A stretch of 64,000 nt of DNA, from the NCBI GenBank assembly GCA_951406725.2, contig OX597818.1, forward strand, positions 130,386,001 to 130,450,000, written 5' to 3'. Source of the stretch: Octopus vulgaris (taxonomy: Eukaryota). Below the pieces are notes generated by a model, which was not told where the DNA came from, ran no database searches, and saw only the letters and a list, made by a program, of their open reading frames with translations. Positions 1 to 33,098 of this stretch are shown in pieces. How positions within the stretch are numbered: position 1 is the first letter of the stretch; each line of letters starts with the position of its first letter. Position numbers and translations under genes: made by a program.

Positions 1-243
1 AAAAAGCTGGTAGTGGTAACAATAATTGTCGGAGCCCTGGGAACAGCGAGTAAAAACCTTGAAAAGTACATGTAACAAACAGGGGCTGCAATAAGGATGG
101 AGCACTTGCAGAAAATATCACTGCTTGGAACCGCTCAAATACTCTGGAAGGTGCTCGAAAAATAAGAGGTGTTACCCTAGTCCACTGGTAGTGAACAGCT
201 GACACCATAGTACATCTCCAGCTGTGCAAAGACAATACTAATA

Positions 244-292
<49 letters not shown>
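1..292 (+). mobile_element. Dong/R4-type non-LTR retrotransposon 3' end with (TAA)n tail (partial)
   Basis: Same sequence as 6680-6985. Confidence 0.75.
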
Positions 293-293
<1 letters not shown>

Positions 294-3200
294 TGAGCAA
301 TCAGTAGATAAACATAAATGATAAATAATATTAAATGTAATGATGGGAGAGGTAAAAAGAGTTTTTCTTTCATTTCTGTTTCTGTTGCTATACTTCTCAG
401 TGACTTGATGTTGTATTTTTTCTTTATCTTTTTCTTGTCCTTTCATAGACTTGATGTCAGTGGTAGCATCCTTCATAGCCTCGTGTGCCTGCAATACAAT
501 CACAACTTCCTCCACTTTACACTGCAACAACTCATGAGAGTCTATTAAAGGTAACAGCACAGCCTCTTCAAGCTCCAACAACATACCAGTGATCTTGCCA
601 GCCTTATCTGGATACATATTATGAATCAGTGGAAAGAGAGTCTCACCAAACACTTGTTTCTGTTCTTGTGGGGCAATTGCTCCTATCATACTGGAGCTAA
701 GCAGTTCTTGTCCTTCAGTAGTCTTGATGTCAGTGGTAGCATCTTTCATAGCCTCATGTGCCTGCAATACAATCACAACTTCCTCCACTTTACCCTGCAA
801 CAACTCATGAGAGTCTATTAAAGGTAACAGCACAGCCTCTTCAAGCTCCAACAACATACCAGTGATCTTGCCAGCCTTATCTGGATACATATTATGAATC
901 AATGGAAAGAGAGTCTCACCAAGCACTTGTTTCTGTTCTTGTGGGGCAATTGCTCCTATCATACTGGAGCCAAGCAGTTTTTGTCCTTTAATATTCTTGA
1001 TGTCAGTGGTAGCATCCGTCATAGCCTCGTGTGCCTGCAATACAATCACAACTTCCTCCACTTTTCCCTGCAACAACTCATGAGAGTCTATTAAAGGTAA
1101 CAGCTCAGCCTCTTCAAGCTCCAACAACATACCAGTGATCTTGCCAGCCTTATCTGGATACATATTATGAATCAATGGAAAGAGAGTCTCACCAAGCACT
1201 TGTTTCTGTTCTTGTGGGGCAATTGCTCCTATCATACTGGAGCTAAGCAGTTTTTGTCCTTTAATATTCTTGATGTCAGTGGTAGCATCCGTCATAGCCT
1301 CATGTGCCTGCAATACAATCACAACTTCCTCCAATTTTCCCTGCAACAACTCATGAGAGTCTATTAAAGGTAACAGCTCAGCCTCTTCAAGCTCCAACAA
1401 CATACCAGTGATCTTGCCAGCCTTATCTGGATACATATTATGAATCAATGGAAAGAGAGTCTCACCGAGCACTTGTTTCTGTTCTTGTGGGGCAATTGCT
1501 CCTATCATACTGGAGCTAAGCAGTTCTTGTCCTTCAGTAATCTTGATGTCAGTGGTAGCATCTTTCATAGCCTCATGTGCCTGCAATACAATCACAACTT
1601 CCTCCAATTTTCCCTGCAACAACTCATGAGAGTCTATTAAAGGTAATAGCTCAGCCTCTTCAAGCTCCAACAACATACCAGTGATCTTGCGAGCCTTATC
1701 TGGATACATATTATGAATCAATGGAAAGAGAGACTCACCAAGCACTTGTTTCTGTTCTTGTGGGGCAATTGCTCCTATCATACTGGAGCTAAGCAGTTCT
1801 TGTCCTTCAGTAGTCTTGATGTCAGTGGTAGCATCCTTCATAGCCTCATGTGCCTGCAATACAATCACAACTTCCTCCACTTTTCTCTGCAACAACTCAT
1901 GAGAGTCTATTAAAGGTAACAGCTCAGCCTCTTCAAGCTCCAACAACATACCAGTGATCTCACCAGCCTTATCTGGATACATATTATGAATCAATGGAAA
2001 GAGAGTCTCACCAAGCACTTGTTTCTGTTCTTGTGGGGCAATTGCTCCTATCATACTGGAGCTAAGCAGTTCTTGTCCTTCAGTAGTCTTGATGTCAGTG
2101 GTAGCATCCTTCATAGCCTCATGTGCCTGCAATACAATCACAACTTCTTCTACTTTTCCCTGCAACAACTCATGAGAGTCTATTAAAGGTAACAGCTCAG
2201 CCTCTTCAAGCTCCAACAACATACCAGTGATCTCACCAGCCTTATCTGGATACATACCATGAACCAATGGAAAGAGAGTCTCACCAAGCATTTGTTTCTG
2301 TTCTTGTGGGGCAATTGCTCCTATCATACTGGAGCTAAGAGGTTCTTGTCCTTTAATAGTCGTGATGTCAGTGGTAGCATCCTTCATAGCCTCATGTGCC
2401 TGCAATACAATCACAACTTCCTCCACTTTTCCCTGCAACAACTCATGAGAGTCTATTAAAGGTAATAGCTCAGCTTTGTCAAGCTCCAACAACATACCAG
2501 TGATTTTGCCAGCCTTATCTGGATACATATTATGAATCAATGGAAAGAGTGTCTCACCAAGCACTTGTTTCTGTTCTTGTGGGTCACTTGCTCCCATCAT
2601 ACTGGAGCTAAGAGGTTCTTGTCCTTCAGTAGTCTTGATGTCAGTGGTAGCATCTTTCATAGCCTCATGTGCCTGCAACACAATCACAACTTCCTCCACT
2701 TTTCCCTGCAACAACTCATGAGAGTCTATTAAAGGTAACAGCTCAGCCTCTTCAAGCTCCAACAACATACCAGTGATCTCACCAGCCTTATCTGGATACA
2801 TACCATGAATCAATGGAAAGAGAGTCTCACCAAGCACTTGTTTCTGTTCTTGTGGGGCAATTGCTCCTATCATACTGGAGCTAAGCAGTTTTTGTCCTTC
2901 AGTAGTCTTGATGTCAGTGGTAGCATTCTTCATAGCCTCATGTGCCTGCAACACAATCACAACTTCCTCCACTTTTCCCTGCAACAACTCATGAGAGTCT
3001 ATTAAAGGTAATAGCTCAGCCTCTTCAAGCTCCAACAACATACCAGTGATCTTGCTAGCCTTATCTGGATACATATTATGAATCAATGGAAAGAGAGTCT
3101 CACCAAGCACTTGTTTCTGTTCTTGTGGGGCAATTGCTCCTATCATACTGGAGCTAAGCAGTTTTTGTCCTTCAGTAGTCTTGATGTCAGTGGTAGCATT

Positions 3201-3605
3201 CTTCATAGCCTCATGTGCCTGCAACACAATCACAACTTCCTCCACTTTTCCCTGCAACAACTCATGAGAGTCTATTAAAGGTAATAGCTCAGCCTCTTCA
3301 AGCTCCAACAACATACCAGTGATCTTGCCAGCCTTATCTGGATACATATTATGAATCAATGGAAAGAGAGTCTCACCAAGCTTTTTTTTCTTTTCTTGAA
3401 GTGGTACTGCTGTTTTGATACTGGAGGAAAAATTATTGTTTTCATGGATGATCACCACTGCTTGCTGATTATTAGGTTGATCTAGCATCGACTGCATTGT
3501 ACCCATAGGTCTGAAAGGTCTTATTGATCCGAATTTAAAGTTAAATCTGGTATTCTCTGACTGCATTTTATTCATTTCTCTTGTGGTAAAAGGAGAGAAA
3601 GCCAT
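177..3605 (-). CDS. Poly-MLLE (PABC) protein, copy 1: 11 tandem MLLE domains, no RRMs, poly-Leu C-terminal tail
   Basis: 1142-aa intronless ORF. The 91-aa repeat contains [15 protein letters not shown]...[10 protein letters not shown]...[12 protein letters not shown], which matches the PABPC1 C-terminal MLLE domain ([15 protein letters not shown]...[10 protein letters not shown]...KVDEAVAVLQAH). DNA period is 273 bp (621, 894 ... 3351). Confidence 0.85.
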
Positions 3606-3893
3606 TGTTTGTCCTCTTTGTGCAGTGATGGGTCAAGAACCATGGTTGATGGAAACTGTACAATGAGATCCTGTTTGATTAGCTGGTCTCATCTACTGTG
3701 TGAGCAAAGGCTGGTACATAGTGTCCTGCTGGGTTGGGGTTGGCCTAACAGTTGTCCAGCAATGAGGACCCAAGGCCATAAACTGTATTAGCAGAGAGGA
3801 ATAGAATACTTTTCTTGAAACTTGGCTGGTATGAAGCAAAGGGTTAGGTTGCTGGCCTGGAAAATGGTATTGAATTAACTAAGTGGGCTTCTA
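3606..3893 (-). pseudogene. Decayed PABPC linker-coding sequence upstream of the ATG (also upstream of copies 2-4, partial in copy 5)
   Basis: Manual translation in the gene's frame gives QYHFPGQQPNP...RKVFYSS...GPHCWTTVRP...Q*MRP...[14 protein letters not shown], with stops at 3693-3695 and 3633-3635. EAHLVN precedes it after a 1-nt shift. These resemble the PABPC motifs AHLxNQY, PRW..VRP and GARPITGQ. Confidence 0.65.
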
Positions 3894-4178
3894 ATAATGT
3901 GTGTTCTCTTGAATATATTTCTAGATTATGTGGTATCAAGTAACCTACATGAGGAAATTTTAAGCAGAACAGTTGTCAGCAACAATCTAGGTGCTACTAC
4001 CAGTTATCAACACTGCAACAATTGTATCTGACACACATGTTTCCTAAGTCAGTCATAATAATAGAAGTAGTGATAACAATATTATCAGTAGTATTGAAGC
4101 GAATGACCACAATGATAATTCTAGTAGCACTCATACTGACAATAATGATAATAATCATATATGCAGGACCAGATTTAA

Positions 4179-4869
4179 CCCTTTCGTTACTATATTTCTG
4201 ACCAAAATACACCCCTCATGAGTTTCAATTAAATTCTAAAATAATCATGAATCTAGGCTTGTTTCATTAAATAACTGTAACTTTTTTACTTATCAACATT
4301 TTAATGTGATATTTGGAACACAATTAAAGAAAGGGTTCTTAATCAATTCTATTGCATAACTTTTGTCTCAAAGTGACTTTAATTACAGGTAAATCCAGGT
4401 AAATTGAGCAAAAGCTAAAAATATTAAAATTTTAAATTGAGCAAATCGTAAAAAATTAAATTTTGTTTAAACATCACTATAGAAAATGAATCATCAGCTA
4501 ATATTCAAATGGGTATGCAACAAAATTTTGATAAAGAAGAATTGTGCACATCACTATATCATCAGTTGAATTTAATCCACAACAGGTGTACCATAAAGGT
4601 GGAATAAAGTGAAATACTAGAATCCACCGTAAGTTTGACCGAACTAAAGAAATCGGTCAAAAAAATTATATACGGCCCTGGTTATGGTATGGAAGTAATA
4701 AATTCCAGACCACATCGTTCCCTAGGCCATGCTGACTAACATTTTCCCTGTATAAAAACTAAATCCACGCAGTACCCAGTAATTTGCTTGACAAATTTTC
4801 CGAAATTTGATCCCTGATTTTGTGCTTGTTTACGTTCTGCGTAAGTTTGTTTCTGCATTGATCGCTTCA
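4179..4869. mobile_element. Left part of a piggyBac-like MITE (copies at 13407-14098, 20413-21104, 28732-29422)
   Basis: TTAA (4175-4178) is followed by CCCTTTCGTTACTA. The reverse complement of this end occurs at 34427-34440. Confidence 0.75.
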
Positions 4870-4959
4870 TTTTGGTCCCACTGTTGTAAAGAACGTTTTT
4901 ATTATTGTACAGAATCCACTTTACAGAATTGATTTAGAGATCATATTTAAAATACAAAA

Positions 4960-5345: not shown

Positions 5346-5597
5346 TTATTTCTACAATTACATAGTTTTGATGGCAGAGTAGTAGGGCTATTACAAGTAC
5401 AGGTAATTGGGTTATTATGTTGCAGATAGTTAGCATCACTAGAATTACTATTGTTGTTAAGCCTACCAATTCTACAAGCACCATTGAATAAATATAACTG
5501 TTATCATTAGTATAGTTGCTGTAATTGTTATTATTTATATAAGAATCACTGTGGTCACTATCAATAGTATTACCATCAGCATTACAAATATGAGAAC

Positions 5598-6244: not shown

Positions 6245-6930
6245 AAACTACCTAAAATACAGAGTAGATAAAACACCAGAAAGTGATAAGTGCAGAATCT
6301 GTGGACAAAATGGTGAAACCTTATGCATATTACCAGCCAATATAAGCCATTAGTCTCAGAAGAATATAAGAGATGCCATGACAATATAGTAAGGCTTGTC
6401 CATTGGACACTTTGCAACAAGTATGGACTTGACAGAGAAAAAAATTAGTATGTCCATAATCCCGAAGGCATCATCGAAAATGATAATGCAAAGATCCTGT
6501 GGGATTTTATGATTCAGTGCAACCAAAAGATAGAGAATAGGAAGCCAGACATATAAGCAAACTATGCTGGATCATAGATATAGCATGCCCAGCTGACAAC
6601 AAGGTATGCAATAAGGAAGAAAGAAAAGTCAATAGATATGACGGGTTAGCTTGGGAGTTAAAGCAATTGTGATCAATGAAAAAGCTGGTAGTGGTAACAA
6701 TAAATGTCGGAGCCCTAGAAACAGCGAGTAAAAACCTTGAAAAGTACATGGAACAAATAGGGGCTGCAATAAGGATGGAGCACTTGTAGAAAATAGCACT
6801 GCTTGGAACCGCTCAAATACTCTAAAAGGTGCTCGAAAAATAAGAGGTGTTACCCTAGTCCACTGGTAGTGAACAGCTGACACCATAGTACATCTCCAGC
6901 ATTAAAAGCTGTGCAAAGGCAATAATAATA

Positions 6931-6971
<41 letters not shown>

Positions 6972-6985
6972 TAACAATAATAATG
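6245..6985 (+). mobile_element. Dong/R4-clade retrotransposon 3' relic: CCHC finger, REL endonuclease, (TAA)n tail (copies ~15468-16225, ~25174-25910, ~30814-31555)
   Basis: Broken translation KCRICGQNGETL.HI...YKRCHDNIVRLVHW...KILWDF...RKPDI...IIDIACP...VGAL...ALLGTAQIL, ending in a TAA microsatellite. Confidence 0.8.
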
Positions 6986-7278
6986 AAAATAGTAACAATG
7001 AGAAATCAGTAGATAAACATAAATGATAAATAATATTAAATGTAATGATGGGAGAGGTAAAAAGAGTTTTTGTTTCGTTTCTTTTTCTGTTGCTATACTT
7101 CTCTGTGACTTGATGTTGTATTTTTTCTTTATCTTTTTCTAGATTTGTTCTCTTCAGTCTTTCTTAATGACCCCTAGCCTTGATGGTAGCAGCTTCCTGA
7201 CCCCGATATTCCCGCAATACAACCATAGCTTCTTTGACTTTAGCCTGCAACAACTCTTGATGTCAGTGATAGCATCTT

Positions 7279-10200
7279 TCAAACCTCGTGCGCCTGCAAC
7301 ACATTCAGAGCTTCCTCGGCTTTAGCCTGCAACAACTCATGAGAGTCTATTAAATGTAACAGCTCAGACGTGTCAAGCTCCAACAACATACCAGTGATCT
7401 TGCCAGCCTTATCTGGATACATATTATGAATCAATGGAAAGAGAGTCTCACCAAGCATTTGTTTCTGTTCTTGTGGGTCAATTGCTCCTATCATACTGGA
7501 GCTAAGAGGTTCTTTTCCTTTAATAGTCTTGATGTCAGTGATAGCATCTTTCATAGCCTCGTGCGCCTGCAACACATTCAGAGCTTTCTCGGCTTTAGCC
7601 TGCAACAACTCATGAGAGTCTATTAAATGTAACACCTCAGCCTCTTCAAGCTCCAACAACATACCAGTGATCTTGCGAGCCTTATCTGGATACATGTTAT
7701 GAATCAATGGAAAGAGAATCTCACCAAGCACTTGTTTCTGTTCTTGTGGGTCAATTGCTCCTATCATACTGGAGCTAAGAGGTTCTTTTCCTTTAATAGT
7801 CTTGATGTCAGTGATAGCATCTTTCATAGCCTCGTGCGCCTGCAACACATTCAGAGCTTCCTCGGCTTTAGCCTGCAACAACTCATGAGAGTCTATTAAA
7901 TGTAACAGCTCAGACGTGTCAAGCTCCAACAACATACCAGTGATCTTGCCAGCCTTATCTGGATACATATTATGAATCAATGGAAAGAGAGTCTCACCAA
8001 GCATTTGTTTCTGTTCTTGTGGGTCAATTGCTCCTATCATACTGGAGCTAAGAGGTTCTTTTCCTTTAATAGTCTTGATGTCAGTGATAGCATCTTTCAT
8101 AGCCTCGTGCGCCTGCAACACATTCAGAGCTTCCTCGGCTTTAGCCTGCAACAACTCATGAGAGTCTATTAAAAGTAACACCTCAGCCTCTTCAAGCTCC
8201 AACAACATACCAGTGATCTTGCGAGCCTTATCTGGATACATATTATGAATCAATGGAAAGAGAATCTCACCAAGCACTTGTTTCTGTTCTTGTGGGTCAA
8301 TTGCTCCTATCATACTGGAGCTAAGAGGTTCTTGTCCTTTAATAGTCTTGATGTCAGTGATAGCATCTTTCATAGCCTCGTGCGCCTGCAACACATTCAG
8401 AGCTTCCTCGGCTTTAGCCTGCAACAACTCATGAGAGTCTATTAAATGTAACAGCTCAGACGTGTCAAGCTCGAACAACATACCAGTGATCTTGCGAGCC
8501 TTATCTGGATACATGTTATGAATCAATGGAAAGAGAATCTCACCAAGCACTTGTTTCTGTTCTTGTGGGTCAATTGCTCCTATCATACTGGAGCTAAGAG
8601 GTTCTTGTCCTTTAATAGTCTTGATGTCAGTGGTAGCATTTTTCTTAGCCTCATGTGCCTGCAACACATTCACAGCTTCCTCGGCTTTAGCCTGCAACAA
8701 CTCATGAGAGTCTATTAAATGTAACACCTCAGCCTCTTCAAGCTCCAACAACATACCAGTGATCTTGCGAGCCTTATCTGGATACATATTATGAATCAAT
8801 GGAAAGAGAATCTCACCAAGCACTTGTTTCTGTTCTTGTGGGGGAATTGCTCCAAACATACTGGAGCTAAGCAGTTTTTGTCCTTTAATAGTCTTGATGT
8901 CAGCGGTAGCATCTTTCATAGCCTCATGTGCCTGCAATACAATCACAACTTCCTCCAATTTTCCCTGCAACAACTCATGAGAGTCTATTAAAGGTAACAG
9001 CTCAGCCTCTTCAAGCTCCAACAACATACCAGTGATTTTGCCAGCCTTATCTGGATACATATTATGAATCAATGGAAAGAGAGTCTCACCAAGCATTTGT
9101 TTCTGTTCTTCTGGGTCAATTGCTCCTATCATACTGGAGCTAAGAGGTTCTTTTCCTTTAATAGTCTTGATGTCAGTGATAGCATCTTTCATAGCCTCGT
9201 GCGCCTGCAACACATTCAGAGCTTCCTCGGCTTTAGCCTGCAACAACTCATGAGAGTCTATTAAATGTAACACCTCAGCCTCTTCAAGCTCCAACAACAT
9301 ACCAGTGATCTTGCGAGCCTTATCTGGATACATGTTATGAATCAATGGAAAGAGAATCTCACCAAGCACTTGTTTCTGTTCTTGTGGGTCAATTGCTCCT
9401 ATCATACTGGAGCTAAGAGGTTCTTGTCCTTTAATAGTCTTGATGTCAGTGATAGCATCTTTCATAGCCTCGTGCGCCTGCAACACATTCAGAGCTTCCT
9501 CGGCTTTAGCCTGCAACAACTCATGAGAGTCTATTAAATGTAACACCTCAGCCTCTTCAAGCTCCAACAACATACCAGTGATCTTGCGAGCCTTATCTGG
9601 ATACATATTATGAATCAATGGAAAGAGAATCTCACCAAGCACTTGTTTCTGTTCTTGTGGGTCAATTGCTCCTATCATACTGGAGCTAAGAGGTTCTTGT
9701 CCTTTAATAGTCTTGATGTCAGTGATAGCATCTTTCATAGCCTCGTGCGCCTGCAACACATTCAGAGCTTCCTCGGCTTTAGCCTGCAACAACTCATGAG
9801 AGTCTATTAAATGTAACAGCTCAGACGTGTCAAGCTCCAACAACATACCAGTGATCTTGCCAGCCTTATCTGGATACATATTATGAATCAATGGAAAGAG
9901 AGTCTCACCAAGCATTTGTTTCTGTTCTTGTGGGTCAATTGCTCCTATCATACTGGAGCTAAGAGGTTCTTTTCCTTTAATAGTCTTGATGTCAGTGATA
10001 GCATCTTTCATAGCCTCGTGCGCCTGCAACACATTCAGAGCTTCCTCGGCTTTAGCCTGCAACAACTCATGAGAGTCTATTAAAAGTAACACCTCAGCCT
10101 CTTCAAGCTCCAACAACATACCAGTGATCTTGCGAGCCTTATCTGGATACATATTATGAATCAATGGAAAGAGAATCTCACCAAGCACTTGTTTCTGTTC

Positions 10201-12833
10201 TTGTGGGTCAATTGCTCCTATCATACTGGAGCTAAGAGGTTCTTGTCCTTTAATAGTCTTGATGTCAGTGATAGCATCTTTCATAGCCTCGTGCGCCTGC
10301 AACAACTCATGAGAGTCTATTAAATGTAACAGCTCAGACGTGTCAAGCTCGAACAACATACCAGTGATCTTGCGAGCCTTATCTGGATACATGTTATGAA
10401 TCAATGGAAAGAGAATCTCACCAAGCACTTGTTTCTGTTCTTGTGGGTCAATTGCTCCTATCATACTGGAGCTAAGAGGTTCTTGTCCTTTAATAGTCTT
10501 GATGTCAGTGGTAGCATTTTTCTTAGCCTCATGTGCCTGCAACACATTCACAGCTTCCTCGGCTTTAGCCTGCAACAACTCATGAGAGTCTATTAAATGT
10601 AACACCTCAGCCTCTTCAAGCTCCAACAACATACCAGTGATCTTGCGAGCCTTATCTGGATACATATTATGAATCAATGGAAAGAGAATCTCACCAAGCA
10701 CTTGTTTCTGTTCTTGTGGGGGAATTGCTCCAATCATACTGGAGCTAAGCAGTTTTTGTCCTTTAATAGTCTTGATGTCAGCGGTAGCATCTTTCATAGC
10801 CTCATGTGCCTGCAATACAATCACAACTTCCTCCAATTTTCCCTGCAACAACTCATGAGAGTCTATTAAAGGTAACAGCTCAGCCTCTTCAAGCTCCAAC
10901 AACATACCAGTGATTTTGCCAGCCTTATCTGGATACATATTATGAATCAGTGGAAAGAGAGTCTCACCGAGCACTTGTTTCTGTTCTTGTGGGGCAATTG
11001 CTCCCATCATACTGGAGCTAAGAGCTTCTTGTCCTTCAGTAGTCTTGATGTCAGTGGTAGCATCCTTCATAGCCTCGTGTGCCTGCAACACAATCACAAC
11101 TTCCTCCACTTTTCCCTGCAACAACTCATGAGAGTCTATTAAAGGTAATAGCTCAGCCTCTTCAAGCTCCAACAACATACCAGTGATCTTGCCAGCCTTA
11201 TCTGGATACATATTATGAATCAATGGAAAGAGAATCTTACTAAGCACTTGTTTCTGTTCTTGTGGGGCAATTGCTCCTATCATACTGGAGCTAAGAGGTT
11301 CTTGTCCTTCAGTAGTCTTGATGTCAGTGGTAGCATCTTTCATAGCCTCTTGTGCCTGCAACACAATCACAACTTCCTCCAATTTTCCCTGCAACAACTC
11401 ATGAGAGTCTATTAAAGGTAATAGCTCAGCCTCTTCAAGCTCCAACAACATACCAGTGATCTTGCCAGCCTTATCTGGATACATATTATGAATCAATGGA
11501 AAGAGAATCTTACTAAGCACTTGTTTCTGTTCTTGTGGGTCACTTGCTCCTATCATACTGGAGCTAAGAGGTTCTTGTCCTTCAGTAGTCTTGATGTCAG
11601 TGGTAGCATCTTTCATAGCCTCTTGTGCCTGCAACACAATCACAACTTCCTCCAATTTTCCCTGCAACAACTCATGAGAGTCTATTAAAGGTAATAGCTC
11701 AGCCTCTTCAAGCTCCAACAACATACCAGTGATCTTGCCAGCCTTATCTGGATACATATTATGAATCAATGGAAAGAGAATCTTACTAAGCACTTGTTTC
11801 TGTTCTTGTGGGTCACTTGCTCCTATCATACTGGAGCTAAGAGGTTCTTGTCCTTCAGTAGTCTTGATGTCAGTGGTAGCATCTTTCATAGCCTCTTGTG
11901 CCTGCAACACAATCACAACTTCCTCCAATTTTCCCTGCAACAACTCATGAGAGTCTATTAAAGGTAATAGCTCAGCCTCTTCAAGCTCCAACAACATACC
12001 AGTGATCTTGCGAGCCTTATCTGGATACATATTATGAATCAATGGAAAGAAAATCTTACTAAGCACTTGTTTCTGTTCTTGTGGGGCAATTGCTCCTATC
12101 ATACTGGAGCTAAGAGGTTCTTGTCCTTCAGTAGTCTTGATGTCAGTGGTAGCATCTTTCATAGCCTCTTGTGCCTGCAACACAATCACAACTTCCTCCA
12201 ATTTTCCCTGCAACAACTCATGAGAGTCTATTAAAGGTAATAGCTCAGCCTCTTCAAGCTCCAACAACATACCAGTGATCTCACCAGCCTTATCTGGATA
12301 CATGTTATAAATCAATGGAAAGAGAGTCTCACCAAGCACTTGTTTCTGTTCTTGTGGGTCACTTGCTCCTATCATACTGGAGCTAAGAGGTTCTTTTCCT
12401 TTAATAGTCTTGATGTCAGTGATAGCATCTTTCATAGCCTCTTGTGCCTGCAACACAATCACAACTTCCTCCACTTTTCCCTGCAACAACTCATGAGAGT
12501 CTATTAAAGGTAATAGCTCAGCTTCGTCAAGCTCCAACAACATACCAGTGATCTTGCCAGCCTTATCTGGATACATACCATGAACCAATGGAAAGAGATT
12601 CTCACCAAGCTTTTTTTGTTTTCTTGAAGTGGTACTGCTGTTCTGATAGTGGAGGAAAAATTATTGTTTTCATGGATGATCACCACTGCTTGCTGATTAT
12701 TAGGTTGATCTAGCATCGACTGCATTGTACCCATAGGTCTGAAAGGTCTTATTGGTCCGAATTTAAAGTTAAATCTGGTATTCTCTGACTGCATTTTATT
12801 CATTTCTCTTGTGGTAAAAGGAGAGAAAGCCAT
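7279..12833 (-). CDS. Poly-MLLE protein, copy 2: 20 MLLE units; 1-nt frameshift at 12611-12617 (real or consensus error) and damaged 3' end
   Basis: ORF 12504..12833 carries the shared MAFSPF leader and ORF 7279..12588 carries the repeats. The T-run has 7 T here versus 8 T at the same site in copy 4. Confidence 0.72.
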
Positions 12834-16401: not shown

Positions 16402-19400
16402 TTAATGACCCCTAGCCTTGATGGTAGCAGCTTCCTGAACCCGATATTCCCGCAATACAACCATAGCTTCTTCGACTTTAGCCTGCAACAACTCATGAGA
16501 GTCTATCAAAGGTAACAGCTCAGCTTTGTCAAGCTCCAACAACATACCTGTGATCTTGCCAGCCACGTATGGATAGATAGCATGAACCAATGGTAAAAGA
16601 GTCTCACCAAGCATTTGTTTCTGTACTTGTGGTGGTACTGCTGCTAACATACTGGAGCTAAGCAGTTTTTGTCCTTCAGTAGTCTTCATGTCAGTGGTAG
16701 CATCTTTCATAGCCTCGTGTGCCTGCAATACAATCACAACTTCCTCCACTTTAGCCTGCAACAACTTATGAGAGTCTATTAAAGGTAACAGCTCAGCTTT
16801 GTCAAGATCCAACAACATACCAGTGATCTTGCCAGCCTTATCTGGATAGATACCATGAACCAATGGAAAGAGAGTCTCACCAAGCACTTGTTTCTGTTCT
16901 TGTGGGTCAATTGCTCCTATCATACTGGAGCTAAGAGGTTCTTGTCCTTCAGTAGTCTTGATGTCAGTGGTAGCATCCTTCATAGCCTCTTGTGCCTGCA
17001 ACACAATCACAACTTCCTCCACTTTTCCCTGCAACAACTCATGAGAGTCTTTTAAAGGTAACAGCTCAGCTTCGTCAAGCTCCAACAACATACCAGTGAT
17101 CTCACCAGCCTTATCTGGATACATGTTATGAATCAATGGAAAGAGAGTCTCACCAAGCACTTGTTTCTGTTCTTGTGGGGCAATTGCTCCTATCATACTG
17201 GAGCTAAGAGGTTCTTGTCCTTCAGTAGTCTTGATGTCAGTGGTAGCATCCTTCATAGCCTCATGTGCCTGCAACACAATCACAACTTCCTCCATTTTTC
17301 CCTGCAACAACTCATGAGAGTCTATTAAAGGTAATAGCTCAGCTTCGTCAAGCTCCAACAACATACCAGTGATCTTGCCAGCCTTATCTGGATACATATT
17401 ATGAATCAATGGAAAGAGAATCTTACTAAGCACTTGTTTCTGTTCTTGTGGGTCACTTGCTCCTATCATACTGGAGCTAAGAGGTTCTTTTCCTTTAATA
17501 GTCTTGATGTCAGTGATAGCATCTTTCATAGCCTCTTGTGCCTGCAACACAATCACAACTTCCTCCACTTTTCCCTGCAACAACTCATGAGAGTCTATTA
17601 AAGGTAACAGCTCAGCTTCGTCAAGCTCCAACAACATACCAGTGATCTCACCAGCCTTATCTGGATACATGTTATGAATAAATTGAAAGAGAGTCTCGCC
17701 AAGCACTTGTTTCTGTTCTTGTGGGGCAATTGCTACTATCATACTGGAGCTAAGCAGTTCTTGTCCTTCAGTAGTCTTGATGTCAGTGGTAGCATCTTTC
17801 ATAGCCTCTTGTGCCTGCAACACAATCACAACTTCCTCCAATTTTCCCTGCAACAACTCATGAGAGTCTATTAAAGGTAATAGCTCAGCCTCTTCAAGCT
17901 CCAACAACATACCAATGATCTTGCCAGCCTTATCTGGATACATATTATGAATCAATGGAAAGAGAGTCTCACCAAGCACTTGTTTCTGTTCTTGTGGGGC
18001 AATTGCTCCTATCATACTGGAGCTAAGCAGTTTTTGTCCTTTAATAGTCTTGATGTCAGTGGTAGCATCCTTCATAGCCTCATGTGCCTGCAACACAATC
18101 ACAACTTCCTCCACTTTACCCTGCAACAACTCATCAGAGTCTATTAAAGGTAATAGCTCAGCCTCTTCAAGCTCCAACAACATACCAATGATCTTGCCAG
18201 CCTTATCTGGATACATATTATGAATCAATGGAAAGAGAGTCTCACCAAGCACTTGTTTCTGTTCTTGTGGGGCAATTGCTCCTATCATACTGGAGCTAAG
18301 AGGTTCTTGTCCTTCAGTAGTCTTGATGTCAGTGGTAGCATCCTTCATAGCCTCATGTGCCTGCAACACAATCACAACTTCCTCCATTTTTCCCTGCAAC
18401 AACTCATGAGAGTCTATTAAAGGTAATAGCTCAGCTTCGTCAAGCTCCAACAACATACCAGTGATCTTGCCAGCCTTATCTGGATACATATTATGAATCA
18501 ATGGAAAGAGAATCTTACTAAGCACTTGTTTCTGTTCTTGTGGGTCACTTGCTCCTATCATACTGGAGCTAAGAGGTTCTTTTCCTTTAATAGTCTTGAT
18601 GTCAGTGATAGCATCTTTCATAGCCTCTTGTGCCTGCAACACAATCACAACTTCCTCCACTTTTCCCTGCAACAACTCATGAGAGTCTATTAAAGGTAAC
18701 AGCTCAGCTTCGTCAAGCTCCAACAACATATCAGTGATCTCACCAGCCTTATCTGGATACATGTTATGAATAAATTGAAAGAGAGTCTCGCCAAGCACTT
18801 GTTTCTGTTCTTGTGGGGCAATTGCTACTATCATACTGGAGCTAAGCAGTTCTTGTCCTTCAGTAGTCTTGATGTCAGTGGTAGCATCTTTCATAGCCTC
18901 TTGTGCCTGCAACACAATCACAACTTCCTCCAATTTTCCCTGCAACAACTCATGAGAGTCTATTAAAGGTAATAGCTCAGCCTCTTCAAGCTCCAACAAC
19001 ATACCAATGATCTTGCCAGCCTTATCTGGATACATATTATGAATCAATGGAAAGAGAGTCTCACCAAGCACTTGTTTCTGTTCTTGTGGGGCAATTGCTC
19101 CTATCATACTGGAGCTAAGCAGTTTTTGTCCTTTAATAGTCTTGATGTCAGTGGTATCATCCTTCATAGCCTCATGTGCCTGCAACACAATCACAACTTC
19201 CTCCACTTTACCCTGCAACAACTCATGAGAGTCTATTAAAGGTAATAGCTCAGCCTCTTCAAGCTCCAACAACATACCAATGATCTTGCCAGCCTTATCT
19301 GGATACATATTATGAATCAATGGAAAGAGAGTCTCACCAAGCACTTGTTTCTGTTCTTGTGGGGCAATTGCTCCTATCATACTGGAGCTAAGCAGTTCTT

Positions 19401-19809
19401 GTCCTTCAGTAGTCTTGATGTCAGTGGTAGCATCTTTCATAGCCTCTTGTGCCTGCAACACAATCACACCTTCCTCCACTTTACCCTGCAACAACTCATG
19501 AGAGTCTATTAAAGGTAATAGCTCAGCCTCTTCAAGCTCCAACAACATACCAGTGATCTTGCCAGCCTTATCTGGATACATATTATGAATCAATGGAAAG
19601 AGAGTCTCACCAAGCTTTTTTTTCTTTTCTTGAAGTGGTACTGCTGTTTTGATACTGGAGGAAAAATTATTGTTTTCATGGATGATCACCACTGCTTGCT
19701 GATTATTAGGTTGATCTAGCATCGACTGCATTGTACCCATAGGTCTGAAAGGTCTTATTGATCCGAATTTAAAGTTAAATCTGGTATTCTCTGACTGCAT
19801 TTTATTCAT
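16402..19809 (-). CDS. Poly-MLLE protein, copy 3: 12 MLLE units
   Basis: ORF 16402..19839 starts with GTG because the paralogous ATG is mutated; the first in-frame ATG is at 19809 (MNKMQ). Ends [18 protein letters not shown]. Confidence 0.82.
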   Translation of the reverse strand: MNKMQSENTRFNFKFGSIRPFRPMGTMQSMLDQPNNQQAVVIIHENNNFSSSIKTAVPLQEKKKKLGETLFPLIHNMYPDKAGKITGMLLELEEAELLPLIDSHELLQGKVEEGVIVLQAQEAMKDATTDIKTTEGQELLSSSMIGAIAPQEQKQVLGETLFPLIHNMYPDKAGKIIGMLLELEEAELLPLIDSHELLQGKVEEVVIVLQAHEAMKDDTTDIKTIKGQKLLSSSMIGAIAPQEQKQVLGETLFPLIHNMYPDKAGKIIGMLLELEEAELLPLIDSHELLQGKLEEVVIVLQAQEAMKDATTDIKTTEGQELLSSSMIVAIAPQEQKQVLGETLFQFIHNMYPDKAGEITDMLLELDEAELLPLIDSHELLQGKVEEVVIVLQAQEAMKDAITDIKTIKGKEPLSSSMIGASDPQEQKQVLSKILFPLIHNMYPDKAGKITGMLLELDEAELLPLIDSHELLQGKMEEVVIVLQAHEAMKDATTDIKTTEGQEPLSSSMIGAIAPQEQKQVLGETLFPLIHNMYPDKAGKIIGMLLELEEAELLPLIDSDELLQGKVEEVVIVLQAHEAMKDATTDIKTIKGQKLLSSSMIGAIAPQEQKQVLGETLFPLIHNMYPDKAGKIIGMLLELEEAELLPLIDSHELLQGKLEEVVIVLQAQEAMKDATTDIKTTEGQELLSSSMIVAIAPQEQKQVLGETLFQFIHNMYPDKAGEITGMLLELDEAELLPLIDSHELLQGKVEEVVIVLQAQEAMKDAITDIKTIKGKEPLSSSMIGASDPQEQKQVLSKILFPLIHNMYPDKAGKITGMLLELDEAELLPLIDSHELLQGKMEEVVIVLQAHEAMKDATTDIKTTEGQEPLSSSMIGAIAPQEQKQVLGETLFPLIHNMYPDKAGEITGMLLELDEAELLPLKDSHELLQGKVEEVVIVLQAQEAMKDATTDIKTTEGQEPLSSSMIGAIDPQEQKQVLGETLFPLVHGIYPDKAGKITGMLLDLDKAELLPLIDSHKLLQAKVEEVVIVLQAHEAMKDATTDMKTTEGQKLLSSSMLAAVPPQVQKQMLGETLLPLVHAIYPYVAGKITGMLLELDKAELLPLIDSHELLQAKVEEAMVVLREYRVQEAATIKARGH

Positions 19810-21739
19810 ATCTCTTGTGGTAAGAGGAGAGAATGCCACTGTTTGTCCTCTTTGTGCAGTGATTGGTCAAGAACCATGGTTGATGGAAACTGTACAATGA
19901 GATCCTGTTTGATTAGCTGGTCTCATCTACTGTGTGAGCAAATGCTGGTACATAGTGTCCTGCTGGGTTGAGGTTGGCCTAACAGTTGTCCAGCAATGAG
20001 GACCCAAGGCTCTAAACTGTATTAGCAGAGAGGAATAGAATACTTTTCTTGAAACTTGGCTGGTATGAAGCAAAGGGTTAGGTTGCTGGCCTGGAAGATG
20101 GTATTGAATTAACTAAGTGGGCTTCTAATAATGTGTGTTCTCTTGAATATATCTCTAGATTATGTGGTATCAAGTAACCTACATGAGGAAATTTTAAGCA
20201 GAACATTTGTCAGCAACAATCTAGGTGCTACTACCAGTTATCAACACTGCAACAATGGTATCTGACACACATGTTTCATAAGTGAGTCATAATAATAGAA
20301 GTAGTGATAACAATATTATCAGTAGTATTCAAGCGAATGACCACAATGATAATTCTAGTTGCACTCATACTGACAATAATGATAATAATCATATATGCAG
20401 GACCAGATTTAACTCTTTCGTTACTATATTTCTGACCAAAATACACCCCTCATGAGTTTCAATTAAATTCTAAAATAATCATGAATCTAGGCTTGTTTCA
20501 TTAAATAACTGTAACTTTTTTACTTATCAACATATTAATGTGATATTTGGAACATAATTAAAGAAAGGGTTCTTTATCAATTCTATTGCATAACTTTTGT
20601 CTCAAAGTGACTTTAATTACAAGTAAATCCAGGTAAATTGAGCAAAAGGTAAAAATATTAAAATTTTTAATTGAGCAAATGGTAAAAAATTAAAATTTTG
20701 TTTAAACATCACTATAGAAAATGAATCATCAGCTAATATTCAAATGGGTATGCAACAAAATTTTGATAAAGAAGAATTGTGCACACCACAATATCATCAG
20801 TTGAATTTAATCCACAACAGGTGTACCATAAAGGTGGAATAAAGTGAAATACTAGAATCCACCGTAAGTTTGACCGAACTAAAGAAATCGGTCAAAAAAA
20901 TAATATACGGCCCTGGTTATGGTATGGAAGTAATAAATTCCAGACCACATCGTTCCCTAGGCCATGCTGACTAACATTTTCCCTGTATAAAAACTAAATC
21001 CACGCAGTACCCAGTAATTTGCTTGACAAATTTTCCGAAATTTGATCCCTGATTTTCTGTTTGTTTACGTTCTGCGTAAGTTTGTTTCTGCATTGATCGC
21101 TTCATTTTGGTCCCACTGTTGTAAAGAACGTTTTTATTATTGTACAGAATCCACTTTACAGAATTGATTTAGAGATCATATTTAAAATACAAAAAGGTGT
21201 TCCTTATCGAATTGGGACATTTCATCTAAAGTTCATCCGATTTGTTAATAATTTTACTTGAACATTTAAAAAGTTTCAATTATTCCATGCAGCAGAGGTT
21301 ACACAATTATCAGTTGTTAAAGTAAGGCTTAGCATGTTTCACAATACTCCAGGTAATATGGAAGACAACATTATTATCCTTTAACTCCCAGATTTTTGCA
21401 GCAAGTGAAGTAGTTTTAACCTTATTCCTTCTTTTAAAGGTGTGAGTGTTGTTATGTGATCTCAGTTTGAAGGGGAAGGAGGTAGAACCTATACAGGTTA
21501 AAGTATTCTGGTTAGTGTAAATCATACATTTGTAAATAATACTTTTAGCTAGGCCCCTATTATTAAGAGGGCACTAAAATTTATTTCTACAATTACATAG
21601 TTTTGATGGCAGAGTAGTAGGGCTATTACAAGTACAAGTAATTGGGTTATTATGTTGCAGATAGTTAGCATCACTAGAATTACTATTGTTGTTAAGCCTA
21701 CCAATTCTACAAGCACCATTGAATAAATATAACTATTAT

Positions 21740-26085: not shown

Positions 26086-28158
26086 TTAATGACCCCTACC
26101 TTTGATGGTAGCAGCTTCTTGACCCCGATATTCCCACAATACAATCATAGCTTCCTCGACTTTAGCCTGCAACAACTCATGAGAGTCTATCAAAGGTAAC
26201 AGCTCAGCTTTGTCAAGCTCCAACAACATACCTGTGATCTTGCCAGCCACGTATGGATAGATAGCATGAACCAATGGTAAAAGAGTCTCACCAAGCATTT
26301 GTTTCTGTACTTGTGGTGGTACTGCTGCTAACATACTGGAGCTAAGCAGTTCTTGTCTATGATTGGTCTTGATGTCAGTGGTAGCATTTTTCTTAGCCTC
26401 ATGTGCCTGCAACACAATCACAGCTTCCTCCACTTTAGCCTGCAGCGACTCATGAGAGTCTAATGAAATTAACAGCTCAGCCTCTTCAAGCTCCAACAAC
26501 ATACCAGTGATCTTGCCAGCCTTATCTGGATACATGTTATAAATCAATGAAAAGAGAATCTCACCAAGCACTTGTTTCTGTTCTTGTGGGTCAATTGTTC
26601 CTATTGTACTGGAACTAAGAGGTTCTTTTCCTTTAATAGTCTTGATGTCAGTGATAGCATCTTTCATAGCCTCTTGTGCCTGCAACACAATCACAACTTC
26701 CTCCAATTTTCCCTGCAACAACTCATGAGAGTCTATTAAAGGTAATAGCTCAGCCTCTTCAAGCTCCAACAACATACCAGTGATCTTGCCAGCCTTATCT
26801 GGATACATATTATGAATCAATGGAAAGAGAATCTTACTAAGCACTTGTTTCTGTTCTTGTGGGTCACTTGCTCCTATCATACTGGAGCTAAGAGGTTCTT
26901 GTCCTTCAGTAGTCTTGATGTCAGTGGTAGCATCTTTCATAGCCTCTTGTGCCTGCAACACAATCACAACTTCCTCCAATTTTCCCTGCAACAACTCATG
27001 AGAGTCTATTAAAGGTAATAGCTCAGCCTCTTCAAGCTCCAACAACATACCAGTGATCTTGCCAGCCTTATCTGGATACATATTATGAATCAATGGAAAG
27101 AGAATCTTACTAAGCACTTGTTTCTGTTCTTGTGGGTCACTTGCTCCTATCATACTGGAGCTAAGAGGTTCTTGTCCTTCAGTAGTCTTGATGTCAGTGG
27201 TAGCATCTTTCATAGCCTCTTGTGCCTGCAACACAATCACAACTTCCTCCAATTTTCCCTGCAACAACTCATGAGAGTCTATTAAAGGTAATAGCTCAGC
27301 CTCTTCAAGCTCCAACAACATACCAGTGATCTTGCGAGCCTTATCTGGATACATATTATGAATCAATGGAAAGAGAATCTTACTAAGCACTTGTTTCTGT
27401 TCTTGTGGGGCAATTGCTCCTATCATACTGGAGCTAAGAGGTTCTTGTCCTTCAGTAGTCTTGATGTCAGTGGTAGCATCCTTCATAGCCTCATGTGCCT
27501 GCAACACAATCACAACTTCCTCCACTTTTCCCTGCAACAACTCATGAGAGTCTATTAAAGGTAACAGCTCAGCTTCGTCAAGCTCCAACAACATACCAGT
27601 GATCTCACCAGCCTTATCTGGATACATGTTATGAATCAATGGAAAGAGAGTCTCACCAAGCACTTGTTTCTGTTCTTGTGGGTCACTTGCTCCTATCATA
27701 CTGGAGCTAAGAGGTTCTTTTCCTTTAATAGTCTTGATGTCAGTGATAGCATCTTTCATAGCCTCTTGTGCCTGCAACACAATCACAACTTCCTCCACTT
27801 TTCCCTGCAACAACTCATGAGAGTCTATTAAAGGTAATAGCTCAGCTTCGTCAAGCTCCAACAACATACCAGTGATCTTGCCAGCCTTATCTGGATACAT
27901 ACCATGAACCAATGGAAAGAGATTCTCACCAAGCTTTTTTTTGTTTTCTTGAAGTGGTACTGCTGTTCTGATAGTGGAGGAAAAATTATTGTTTTCATGG
28001 ATGATCACCACTGCTTGCTGATTATTAGGTTGATCTAGCATCGACTGCATTGTACCCATAGGTCTGAAAGGTCTTATTGGTCCGAATTTAAAGTTAAATC
28101 TGGTATTCTCTGACTGCATTTTATTCATTTCTCTTGTGGTAAAAGGAGAGAAAGCCAT
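26086..28158 (-). CDS. Poly-MLLE protein, copy 4: 7 MLLE units
   Basis: Intact 690-aa ORF from ATG to TAA, with KITGMLLE repeated every 91 aa. Confidence 0.85.
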   Translation of the reverse strand: MAFSPFTTREMNKMQSENTRFNFKFGPIRPFRPMGTMQSMLDQPNNQQAVVIIHENNNFSSTIRTAVPLQENKKKLGENLFPLVHGMYPDKAGKITGMLLELDEAELLPLIDSHELLQGKVEEVVIVLQAQEAMKDAITDIKTIKGKEPLSSSMIGASDPQEQKQVLGETLFPLIHNMYPDKAGEITGMLLELDEAELLPLIDSHELLQGKVEEVVIVLQAHEAMKDATTDIKTTEGQEPLSSSMIGAIAPQEQKQVLSKILFPLIHNMYPDKARKITGMLLELEEAELLPLIDSHELLQGKLEEVVIVLQAQEAMKDATTDIKTTEGQEPLSSSMIGASDPQEQKQVLSKILFPLIHNMYPDKAGKITGMLLELEEAELLPLIDSHELLQGKLEEVVIVLQAQEAMKDATTDIKTTEGQEPLSSSMIGASDPQEQKQVLSKILFPLIHNMYPDKAGKITGMLLELEEAELLPLIDSHELLQGKLEEVVIVLQAQEAMKDAITDIKTIKGKEPLSSSTIGTIDPQEQKQVLGEILFSLIYNMYPDKAGKITGMLLELEEAELLISLDSHESLQAKVEEAVIVLQAHEAKKNATTDIKTNHRQELLSSSMLAAVPPQVQKQMLGETLLPLVHAIYPYVAGKITGMLLELDKAELLPLIDSHELLQAKVEEAMIVLWEYRGQEAATIKGRGH

Positions 28159-30150
28159 TGTTTGTCCTCTTTGTGCAGTGATGGGTCAAGAACCATGGTT
28201 GATGGAAACTGTACAATGAGATCCTGTTTAATTAGCTGGTCTCATCTACTGTGTGAGCAAAGGCTGGTACATAGTATCCTGCTGGGTTGAGGTTGGCCTA
28301 AAAGTTGTTCAGCAATGAGGCCCCAAGGCCCGAAACTGTATTAGCAGAGAGGATTAGAATACTTTTCTTGAAACTTGGCTGGTATGAAGCAAAGGGTTAG
28401 GTTGCTGGCCTGGAAGATGGTATTGAATTAACTAAGTGGGCTTCTAATAATGTGTGTTCTCTTGAATATATCTCTAGATTATGTGGTATCAAGTAACCTA
28501 CATGAGGAAATTTTAAGCAGAACAGTTGTCAGCAACAATCTAGGTGCTACTACCAGTTATCAACACTGCAACAATGGTATCTGACACACATGTTTCATAA
28601 GTCAGTCATAATAATAGAAGTAGTGATAACAATATTATCAGTAGTATTCAAGCGAATGACCACAATGATAATTCTAGTAGCACCCATACTGACAATAATG
28701 ATAATAATCATATATGCAGGACCAGATTTAACCCTTTCGTTACTATATTTCTGACCAAAATACACCCCTCATGAGTTTCAATTAAATTCTAAAATAATCA
28801 TGAATCTAGGCTTGTTTCATTAAATAACTGTAACTTTTTTACTTATCAACATTTTAATGTGATATTTGGAACATAATTAAAGAAAGGGTTCTTAATCAAT
28901 TCTATTGCATAACTTTTGTCTCAAAGTGATTTTAATTATAGGTAAATCCAGGTAAATTGAGCAAAAGGTAAAAATATTAAAATTTTAAATTGAGCAAATC
29001 GTAAAAATTAAAATTTTGTTTAAACATCACCATAGAAAATGAATCATCAGCTAATATTCAAATGGGTATGCAACAAAATGTTGATAAAGAAGAATTGTGC
29101 ATATCACTATATCATCAGTTGAATTTAATCCACAACAGGTGTACCATAAAGGTGGAATAAAGTGAAATACTAGAATCCACCGTAAGTTTGACCGAACTAA
29201 AGAAATTGGTCAAAAAAATAATATACGGCCCTGGTTATGGTATGGAAGTGATAAATTCCAGACCACATCGTTCCCTAGGACATGCTGACTAACATTTTCC
29301 CTGTATAAAAACTAAATCCACGCAGTACCCAGTAATTTACTTGACAAATTTTCCGAAATTTGATCCCTGATTTTGTGCTTGTTTACGTTCTGCGTAAGTT
29401 TGTTTCTGCATTGATCGCTTCATTTTGGTCCCACTGTTGTAAAGAACGTTTTTATTATTGTACAGAATCCACTTTACAGAATTGATTTAGAGATCATATT
29501 TAAAATACAAAAAGGTGTTCCTTATGGAATTGGAACATTTCATCTAAAGTTCATCCGATTTGTTAATAATTTTACTTGAACATTTAAAAAGTTTCAATTA
29601 TTCCATGCAGCAGAGGTTACACAATTATCAGTTGTTAAAGTAAGGCTTAGCATGTTTCACAATACTCCAGGTAATATGGAAGACAACATTATTATCCTTT
29701 AACTCCCAGATTTTTGCAGCAAGTGAAGTAGTTTTAACCTTATTCCTTCTTTTAAAGGTGTGAGTGTTGTTATGTGATCTCAGTTTGAAGGGGAAGGAGG
29801 TAGAACCTATACAGGTTAAAGTATTCTGGTTAGTGTAAATCATACATTTGTAAATAATACTTTTAGCTAGGCCCCTATTATTAAGAGGGCACTAAAATTT
29901 ATTTCTACAATTACATAGTTTTGATGGCAGAGTAGTAGGGCTATTACAAGTACAGGTAATTGGGTTATTATGTTGCAGATAGTTAGCATCACTAGAATTA
30001 CTATTGTTGTTAAGCCTACCAATTCTACAAGCACCATTGAATAAATATAACTGTTATCATTAGTATAGTTGCTGTAATTGTTATTATTTATATAAGAATC
30101 ACTGTGGTCACTATCAATAGTATTACCATCAGCATTACAAATATGAGCAC

Positions 30151-32983: not shown

Positions 32984-33098
32984 TGTTTGTCCTCTTTGTG
33001 CAGTGATGGGTCAAGAACCATGGTTGATGGAAACTGTACAATGAGATCCTGTTTAATTAGCTGGTCTCATCTACTGTGTGAGCAAAGGCTGGTACATA

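What the first reader, a model, noticed from the sequence alone, without database searches (positions are those of the whole stretch)
3606..3893. Fossil PABPC linker in the 5' region reveals the family's origin
Seen: the frame upstream of the ATG reads QYHFPGQQP...VFYS...GPHCWTTVRP...Q*MRP...GS*PITAQ, preceded by EAHLVN. The coding leader continues with RFNFKF and QQAVVII. Known: PABPC has AHLxNQY just after RRM4, then PRW..VRP, ARxITGQ, xxYKY and QxAVxxQGQEPL. Inference: an intronless PABPC copy, probably a 5'-truncated retrocopy, lost its RRMs. Two stops then silenced the front of the linker and an internal Met became the start, while the MLLE part stayed open and was amplified.
Basis: partly seen in the sequence, partly recalled or inferred. 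Interest (0 to 1): 0.7.

Follow-up and report, generated by a model that had tools for sequence, protein, structure and literature searches.

The report
Broken PABP linker before MLLE-repeat genes
Five neighbouring octopus genes built from repeated MLLE docking domains derive from the tail end of the animal's main poly(A)-binding-protein gene, and the broken stretch before their start codon is the leftover of that copy; copying through RNA is possible but unproven, and the protein would likely compete for that protein's partners.

Summary
The core observation holds. Window 3919→3190 (− strand) is collinear with the host PABPC gene on contig C23 (554/735 nt, E 1e-142). It begins at parent codon 381, just after RRM4, and the start ATG (3605) is the parent's internal Met484. 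Details need correcting. The fossil has three stops and two frameshifts, not two stops, and EAHLVN and QYHFPGQQP are off-frame coincidences. The proposed intron test cannot work: the parent has no intron across the copied span. Homology ends about 270–280 nt into the 3' UTR at an (ATT)n repeat, with no poly(A) tail or target-site duplication found. A local ~215-bp inverted repeat flanks the insert. Retroposition (~0.5) and DNA-level copying (~0.4) both remain open. The fragment founded a five-gene array of RRM-less genes with 4–20 MLLE units (54 in all), with relatives in O. sinensis and O. bimaculoides. The frame was kept (5 of 5 lesions lie upstream of the ATG), but variation among units looks neutral (dN/dS about 0.9–1.2). 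Only 12 of 52 units keep all 15 core PAM2-contact residues. The fossil is an ordinary duplication scar; the RRM-less poly-MLLE family was not found in print.

The parts
3606..3919 (-). Decayed PABPC linker (parent codons 381-483), now upstream of the start codon of copy 1
   Evidence: 77% nt identity over 99 aligned codons, 3 stops, 2 frameshifts
3875..3877 (-).
3693..3695 (-). Stop TAG (parent CAG); present in all five copies
3633..3635 (-). Stop TGA (parent CGG); present in all five copies
3809..3910 (-). Segment between a +1 (near 3910) and a +2 (near 3810) insertion, read in another frame; source of the off-frame EAHLVN and QYHFPGQQP strings
3603..3605 (-). Start ATG = parent Met484 (context ACAATGG); GTG in copy 3
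3379..3605 (-). Coding leader from parent codons 484-559 (open; only in-frame indels; dN 0.30); its first 68 residues have pLDDT <50 in the copy 5 model
3575..3779 (-). Upstream ATGs inside the fossil: 3779 (28 aa), 3719 (8 aa), 3692 (19 aa) in frame, and 3643 (23 aa, out of frame, overlapping the main start)
177..3605 (-). Copy 1 ORF, 1142 aa, 11 MLLE units; lacks the terminal unit and stop and reads on into former 3' UTR
3940..4155 (.). Right arm of a local inverted repeat next to the 5' junction; left arm lies about 1140-1375 bases left of the window (L018); 163/215 identical columns
6245..6900 (+). 3' end of a high-copy non-LTR-retroelement-like repeat whose (AAT)n tail abuts the end of the PABPC 3' UTR remnant (R4/Dong assignment recalled from motifs, not tested)
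6921..7170 (-). Remnant of the parent's 3' UTR behind copy 2 (to about +270); the same remnant follows every copy
7279..12833 (-). Copy 2: 20 MLLE units; 1-nt deletion in an A run of the leader (real or assembly error); downstream ORF 1765 aa
12834..13147 (-). Fossil linker of copy 2
16402..19839 (-). Copy 3: 12 MLLE units; first ATG changed to GTG, next in-frame ATG at 19809
19840..20153 (-). Fossil linker of copy 3
26086..28158 (-). Copy 4: intact, 690 aa, 7 MLLE units
28159..28472 (-). Fossil linker of copy 4
31730..32983 (-). Copy 5: intact, 417 aa, 4 MLLE units
32984..33098 (-). Shortened fossil of copy 5: a ~566-bp deletion removed its front part and the 5' junction

Best explanation
Bases 3606-3919 are the decayed front of a ~1-kb 3' fragment of the host PABPC gene (codon 381 to about 270 nt past the stop) that now lies on another chromosome, possibly moved through an RNA copy, and they likely serve as untranslated leader of an RRM-less gene whose repeated MLLE units are predicted to bind PAM2 proteins. 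Shown: the donor, the 5' breakpoint, the lesions, start = Met484, a 273-nt unit and five gene copies. Inferred order: (1) insertion after the Octopus/Argonauta split and before the vulgaris/bimaculoides split; (2) translation from Met484 (good start context) left codons 381-483 free to decay; (3) in-frame tandem duplication of the MLLE, perhaps seeded by the only two GTCGTC words of the parent CDS, which lie exactly 273 nt apart; (4) whole-gene tandem duplication with recent unequal exchange. Inferred function: a multivalent, RNA-free competitor or scaffold for PAM2 proteins, under weak constraint. Sub-odds: origin 0.97; RNA route 0.5; translated and binds PAM2 0.5.
For: Donor: a DNA search of the whole genome with 3400-3930 gave 6 matches, the 5 array copies and C23; the C10 paralogue gives no significant hit to the fossil. 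In the MLLE tree, the octopus units group with octopod PABPC (100/97). Frame kept: all 5 lesions lie in the 103 codons before the ATG and none in the following 156 parent-derived codons of copy 1's leader and first unit (P about 0.01). dN to the parent is 0.30 in the fossil and 0.13-0.23 in units. No stop appears among 80 amino-acid-changing variants in 48 units. Relatives: O. sinensis models start at the same Met, and an O. bimaculoides protein has the same 91-aa unit. Dating: the copy shares 14 Octopus-specific states versus 2 Argonauta-only, and keeps a residue length lost in vulgaris/sinensis. The F/K/L triad needed for PAM2 binding (PMC11347130, passages) is intact in 40 of 52 units. The model matches MLLE-PAM2 crystal structures at about 1 A rmsd. 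Contigs from three runs guessed to be RNA bridge the junction, fossil and ATG without gaps. For the RNA route: other chromosome, exon sequence only, 5'-truncated with stop and 3' UTR kept; the four PABPC-like loci found with all four RRMs each lie in one open frame, on three chromosomes.
Against: No retro hallmark: no poly(A) run (longest A run 9 and 5) and no shared word over 8 nt between the 5' flank and the 3' side. Homology stops at +270-281, while the parent's first AATAAA/ATTAAA is at +1306. Selection is weak: dN/dS among units is 0.86 (1.05-1.25 with transition bias); leader dN equals fossil dN (0.30); the fossil-versus-unit dN difference gives P=0.052. Only 12 of 52 units keep all 15 core PAM2-contact residues, 5 of 52 keep these plus A607 and H614, and copy 3 has 0 of 12. 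Three of five copies are damaged. Four upstream ATGs lie in the fossil, one overlapping the start. The same contigs also cover spacer DNA (4855-5588), so they do not define a 5' UTR. The connector sequence fits a 6-nt insertion plus a 267-nt junction as well as the GTCGTC junction, and other 6-mer pairs exist nearby.
Confidence: 0.55

Rival explanations
1. The same fragment was copied at DNA level (template switch or gap filling at a fragile inverted repeat or (ATT)n tract), not through RNA. Everything downstream is as in the best explanation.
For: The parent has no intron in the span, so DNA copying gives the same product. The 3' homology ends inside an (ATT)n tract. The 5' junction abuts one arm of a local inverted repeat whose arms (76% identical) are about as diverged as copy and parent (75-77%). 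No poly(A) or target-site duplication was found. Gap-filling capture is described for single-copy Pack-TIRs (PMC8277862, passages).
Against: That paper reports a bias to nearby donors, whereas this donor is on another chromosome. Junction microhomology is at most a few bases. The complex half of the arm has no relative in 7 of 7 dispersed hits examined, so it is not shown to be a transposon end. A later retroelement insertion at the (ATT)n may have removed the true 3' end.
Confidence: 0.4
2. The array is a transcribed but dispensable or decaying duplicate: the frame was kept early, and the recent unit and gene amplification is neutral unequal crossing-over.
For: dN/dS among units is about 1. 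Three of five copies are damaged. PAM2-contact substitutions are common. Mouse PABPC retrogenes Pabpc2 and Pabpc6 are dispensable (PMC12151635, passages).
Against: No lesion in leader plus unit versus 5 in the fossil (P about 0.01). No stop among 80 amino-acid-changing variants. An open multi-unit frame is also annotated in O. bimaculoides.
Confidence: 0.35
3. Gene fission: one PABPC duplicate split into the RRM-only genes on C11 (homology ends at parent codon about 385) and this linker-MLLE half (starts at codon 381).
For: The two pieces are almost exactly complementary.
Against: Fourfold-degenerate sites are saturated for both C11 genes (77/105 and 74/100 differ) but not for the C5 copy (3/22 in the fossil, 7/17 in the leader, 10/23 in a unit), so the C11 genes are much older. 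No linker or MLLE remnant was found in about 10 kb behind either C11 gene.
Confidence: 0.03

Closest known systems
Mammalian PABPC retrogenes (mouse Pabpc2 and Pabpc6, primate PABPC3; PMC12151635, passages read)
   Same: Dispersed, intronless derivatives of the main cytoplasmic PABP gene.
   Different: Those come from an intron-bearing parent and, as recalled, keep their RRMs. Here the parent CDS is intronless, all RRMs are absent, an internal Met is the start and the MLLE is repeated 4-20 times.
Ustilago maydis Rrm4 (bioRxiv 10.1101/2021.10.25.465676, abstract and outline seen)
   Same: Several MLLE domains in a row form a binding platform, with unequal roles of the units.
   Different: Rrm4 is an RNA-binding protein with three MLLE domains. 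The octopus proteins have no RNA-binding domain and carry near-identical, recently amplified units from PABPC.
Single-copy Pack-TIR / gap-filling gene-fragment capture (PMC8277862, passages read)
   Same: A host gene fragment lies between inverted sequences.
   Different: The arms here are not shown to belong to a transposon family, and the donor is on another chromosome.
MLLE domain PF00658 of PABPC1 and UBR5
   Same: Sequence and predicted fold match; KITGMLLE or a close variant is in every in-frame unit.
   Different: Frequent changes at PAM2-contact positions (G576R, K577E, E561K, A607V in parent numbering).

Membership tests
PABPC (cytoplasmic poly(A)-binding protein) | Four N-terminal RRM domains | tested here: not met
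   No homology to the parent upstream of codon 381 (score 32 vs shuffle maximum 49); a genome search with RRM1-4 listed no match at this locus
PABPC (cytoplasmic poly(A)-binding protein) | C-terminal MLLE domain and linker descent | tested here: met
Processed retrocopy | Loss of parental introns | tested here: inconclusive
   The parent has no intron in the copied span
Processed retrocopy | Poly(A) tail at the 3' end | tested here: not met
   Homology ends in (ATT)n at about +270; longest A runs downstream are 9 and 5; age and a retroelement insertion could have erased a tail
Processed retrocopy | Target-site duplication | tested here: not met
   No shared word over 8 nt between the last 41 nt of the 5' flank and the two 3' regions searched
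Processed retrocopy | Dispersed site, 5' truncation, stop and 3' UTR retained | tested here: met
   C23 to C5
Pack-TIR | Flanking inverted repeats belong to a dispersed DNA-transposon family | tested here: inconclusive
   Only the ATT-rich outer ~110 bp has dispersed relatives; the inner half matched none of 7 loci examined
MLLE/PAM2 reader | F567/K580/L585-equivalent triad | tested here: met
   40 of 52 units (triad from PMC11347130)
MLLE/PAM2 reader | Full PAM2-contact surface (contact residues from PMC2854688, passages) | tested here: inconclusive
   12 of 52 units keep a 15-residue core; 5 of 52 keep 17 residues
MLLE/PAM2 reader | Measured PAM2 binding | not testable with these tools
   needs a binding assay

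The most novel reading that the evidence does not exclude
Octopus carries a natural RRM-less poly-MLLE protein, up to 20 docking units per chain, that titrates or condenses PAM2 proteins (PAIP2, eRF3, PAN3, TOB, ataxin-2, GW182) away from poly(A)-bound PABP. It would be one of several independent births of such MLLE arrays, since octopus, sea star, sea cucumber, sponge, sea slug and coral-type repeats each form their own group in the tree. This would make MLLE multiplication a recurrent, undescribed way of tuning mRNA turnover.
Probability: 0.25. Interest if true: 0.75.

Novelty: new variant of a known kind. Interest (0 to 1): 0.45.

Why it matters
The fossil gives an unusually complete record of a gene's birth: donor, breakpoint, recruited start codon, dated decay of the discarded part, and a repeat period matching a direct repeat in the donor. 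It also shows that 'intronless' cannot diagnose retroposition for octopus PABPC copies. If the product is made and binds PAM2 motifs, it is a natural multivalent antagonist or scaffold of the PABP-PAM2 network and can be tested directly; similar arrays in other invertebrates suggest a recurrent solution.

Tried and rejected
Intron test: void, because the parent is intronless over the span. C10 PABPC paralogue as donor: rejected (the DNA comparison printed no hit). Fission with the C11 RRM-only genes: rejected on divergence. Further parent 3' UTR beyond the retroelement: 7 of 8 spacer pieces scored below the shuffle maximum, and the eighth (3920-4175) scored 45 vs 43, in ATT-rich sequence. Against about 40 kb around the parent, the right arm scored 65 on the reverse strand vs 44-49 in only 4 shuffles and the left arm 50 vs 40-49; this was not followed up and is likely ATT content. 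Expression: no RNA holder was listed on record; 17 holders are only guessed to be RNA. The one nearly single-copy bin outside the array (35123-35340) had depth 0 and 0.2 in two RNA-guessed runs vs 6.8 and 1.6 in two genome-sized runs; this is a single bin and not taken as evidence. A search for short leader-bearing proteins found none at E<=0.001. Pfam found nothing in three 41-43-aa pieces of the retroelement fragment. Literature: 'MLLE domain'+'tandem'+'octopus' gave 0 papers; 'MLLE'+'cephalopod' listed 2 whose titles are on other topics (not opened); 'multiple MLLE domains' occurred in none of the 20 listed; six tandem-MLLE phrases listed only the Rrm4 paper and one unrelated plant paper. 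Subscription journals and supplements were not searched. Earlier scan findings: none.

Full report
Setting. The window holds five head-to-tail genes on the minus strand, built from a 273-nt unit that encodes an MLLE domain (PF00658, E 6e-51 for the first 273 aa). There are 54 units: 11, 20, 12, 7 and 4 in copies 1-5. A genome-wide MLLE search found two full-length PABPC genes elsewhere, on C23 and C10. The C23 protein matches database records named Octopus sinensis and O. vulgaris PABPC4-like, so the host is an octopus.

Observation. Window 3919→3190 aligns to the C23 gene at 554/735 nt, E 1e-142. The part upstream of the ATG scores 322 against the parent CDS versus a maximum of 45 in 200 shuffles, and gives tblastn E 1e-14 by itself; the C10 paralogue gives no significant hit there. 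A DNA search of the genome with 3400-3930 returned 6 of 6 scored candidates: the five array copies and C23. The junction is at parent codon 381, just past RRM4, and the flank 3920-4175 shows no similarity to the parent upstream of it (32 vs shuffle maximum 49). Read in the parent's frame, the fossil has three stops (3875-77, 3693-95, 3633-35) and insertions of 1 and 2 nt (near 3910 and 3810). The start ATG is parent Met484. All three stops are in copies 1-4; copy 5 keeps the last two after a deletion of the 3721-4286 equivalent.

RNA or DNA copy. The parent CDS is one 643-codon open frame, and homology continues without a jump to about +270-281 of its 3' UTR. The four PABPC-like loci found with all four RRMs are each in one open frame. 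At the 3' end the homology fades into an (ATT)n tract that is also the tail of a high-copy repeat (40 scored of 5125 candidates, 84-88% identity outside the array). That repeat's broken translation shows a CxxC knuckle and endonuclease-like motifs; I recall these as R4/Dong-type, a clade reported to target (TAA)n in molluscs (PMC7998251, passages). No poly(A) and no target-site duplication were found, and the parent's first AATAAA/ATTAAA lies at +1306. A new feature is a local inverted repeat: 3940-4155 matches, inverted, a stretch 1140-1375 bases left of the window (163/215 columns; inner half 85 vs shuffle maximum 41), and the alignment runs up to the junction. Its inner half has no relative in the 7 dispersed loci examined. 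I put retroposition at about 0.5 and DNA-level template switching at about 0.4.

Age. Against O. bimaculoides and Argonauta PABPC, the copy shares 14 Octopus-only states, 2 Argonauta-only states, and 2 states plus a residue length shared by bimaculoides and Argonauta but not vulgaris/sinensis; 1 state is vulgaris-only. O. bimaculoides has a 273-aa protein with the same 91-aa unit (73% identity), and O. sinensis has three models that begin at the same Met. In a 71-row MLLE tree, the 11 octopus repeat rows form a clade (99/96) within a 14-row octopod group (100/97), away from the C10 paralogue (80 columns, at most 4 units per protein). The copy therefore likely arose within Octopus before the vulgaris/bimaculoides split. 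The bimaculoides DNA could not be read, so its fossil is untested.

Repeat birth. GTCGTC occurs exactly twice in the parent CDS, 273 nt apart and flanking the MLLE. A crossover there predicts a connector of the observed length, AHQAKEAAATNAGVVHGQEPL versus [21 protein letters not shown] in bimaculoides. This is a lead only: three other 6-mer pairs lie in the same windows (spacings 266, 282, 327), and the connector letters fit a 6-nt insertion with a shorter junction equally well.

Selection. For: five lesions in 103 fossil codons versus none in the next 156 (P about 0.01); unit dN 0.13-0.23 versus 0.30 in the fossil (P=0.052 for a typical unit); no stop among 80 amino-acid-changing variants in 48 of 54 units (first units and one deletion unit left out). 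Against: dN/dS among units is 0.86-1.25; leader dN is 0.30, as in the fossil. Copy 1 has lost its stop, copy 2 has a leader frameshift (possibly a homopolymer error) and copy 3 has lost the first ATG.

Function. The copy 5 model (mean pLDDT 59.7, pTM 0.29) shows a low-confidence leader and four helical units, and matches human MLLE structures at about 1 A rmsd. Human F567/K580/L585 are needed for PAM2 binding (PMC11347130, passages); their equivalents are intact in 40 of 52 units. Only 12 of 52 keep a 15-residue contact core drawn from PMC2854688 (passages), and copy 3 has none (2 of 54 units left out). With no RRM, a translated product could not hold poly(A) and would compete for or cluster PAM2 proteins; this step is inference. 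Contigs of three runs guessed to be RNA (X1, X3, X6) bridge ATG, fossil and junction with no gap, and none of the 12 of 13 listed differences per contig touches a stop. One contig of X10 shows the copy 5 deletion joint. These runs also cover spacer DNA, and contigs give no strand or start, so transcription and 5' UTR status are likely but not shown. Four upstream ATGs in the fossil could damp translation.

Rejected. Two RRM-only genes on C11 end at parent codon about 385, nearly complementary to this fragment, but their fourfold sites are saturated (77/105, 74/100) whereas the C5 copy's are not; fission is unlikely.

Comparison and novelty. It works like a truncated gene copy with a recruited internal start, a known route to new genes. 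It is not a PABPC (no RRMs) and fails two of the retrocopy hallmarks tested. The nearest described multi-MLLE protein is fungal Rrm4 (bioRxiv 10.1101/2021.10.25.465676, abstract and outline), which is an RNA-binding protein. Four literature searches found no description of an RRM-less tandem-MLLE family, although databases hold such proteins from many invertebrates. Verdict: the fossil is real and settles the donor, not the mechanism; the finding is a new variant of a known kind, interest 0.45.

Noticed in passing
G000:C11:20543923-20545080 and 20581991-20583133 (L027, L029): Two intronless RRM1-4-only PABPC genes that end a few residues after RRM4 and lack linker and MLLE; much older than the C5 copy. 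The architecture recalls mammalian PABPC5 and PABPC4L (recalled).
   Followed up: partly
G000:C23:9276758-9278689 and C10:102744832-102746817 (L013, L014): Both full-length PABPC genes have a single-exon CDS; the RRM search found no intron-split PABPC-like locus, so the main gene may itself be an old retrogene.
   Followed up: partly
G000:C2:78134334-78135170 (L017:3332-4168): Another, highly diverged locus with two to three MLLE-like stretches in a row (23-35% identity to the parent); a weak single hit also lies on C21 (L016).
   Followed up: no
proteins P0005-P0014, P0025, P0131, P0132, P0141: Tandem-MLLE proteins occur in sea star (RING/B-box plus 6 MLLE), corals (RING plus MLLE), sponge, sea cucumber, crinoid, gastropods, mussels and Symbiodinium. 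In a 71-row tree (at most 4 units per protein, few columns), several species' units group by themselves, which suggests repeated origins; gene models were not checked.
   Followed up: partly
window 21807-24380: Open 857-aa ORF with endonuclease and reverse-transcriptase domains (LINE) inserted in the spacer between copies 3 and 4 only.
   Followed up: partly
L018:9007-9070: Perfect 64-bp palindrome left of copy 1; the downstream spacers of copies 2-5 diverge from this region near its centre, consistent with a deletion there.
   Followed up: partly
window 3606-3919 versus 3204-3605: Synonymous divergence from the parent is lower in the fossil (dS 0.19; 3/22 fourfold sites) than in the leader and units (dS 0.47-0.76; 17/40). 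The numbers are small and the difference is unexplained.
   Followed up: no
window 4175-4433: High-copy repeat starting TTAA-CCCTTT, also found 93% identical about 3.6 kb upstream of the parent gene in the opposite orientation; it looks like a MITE and is not part of the copied fragment.
   Followed up: partly
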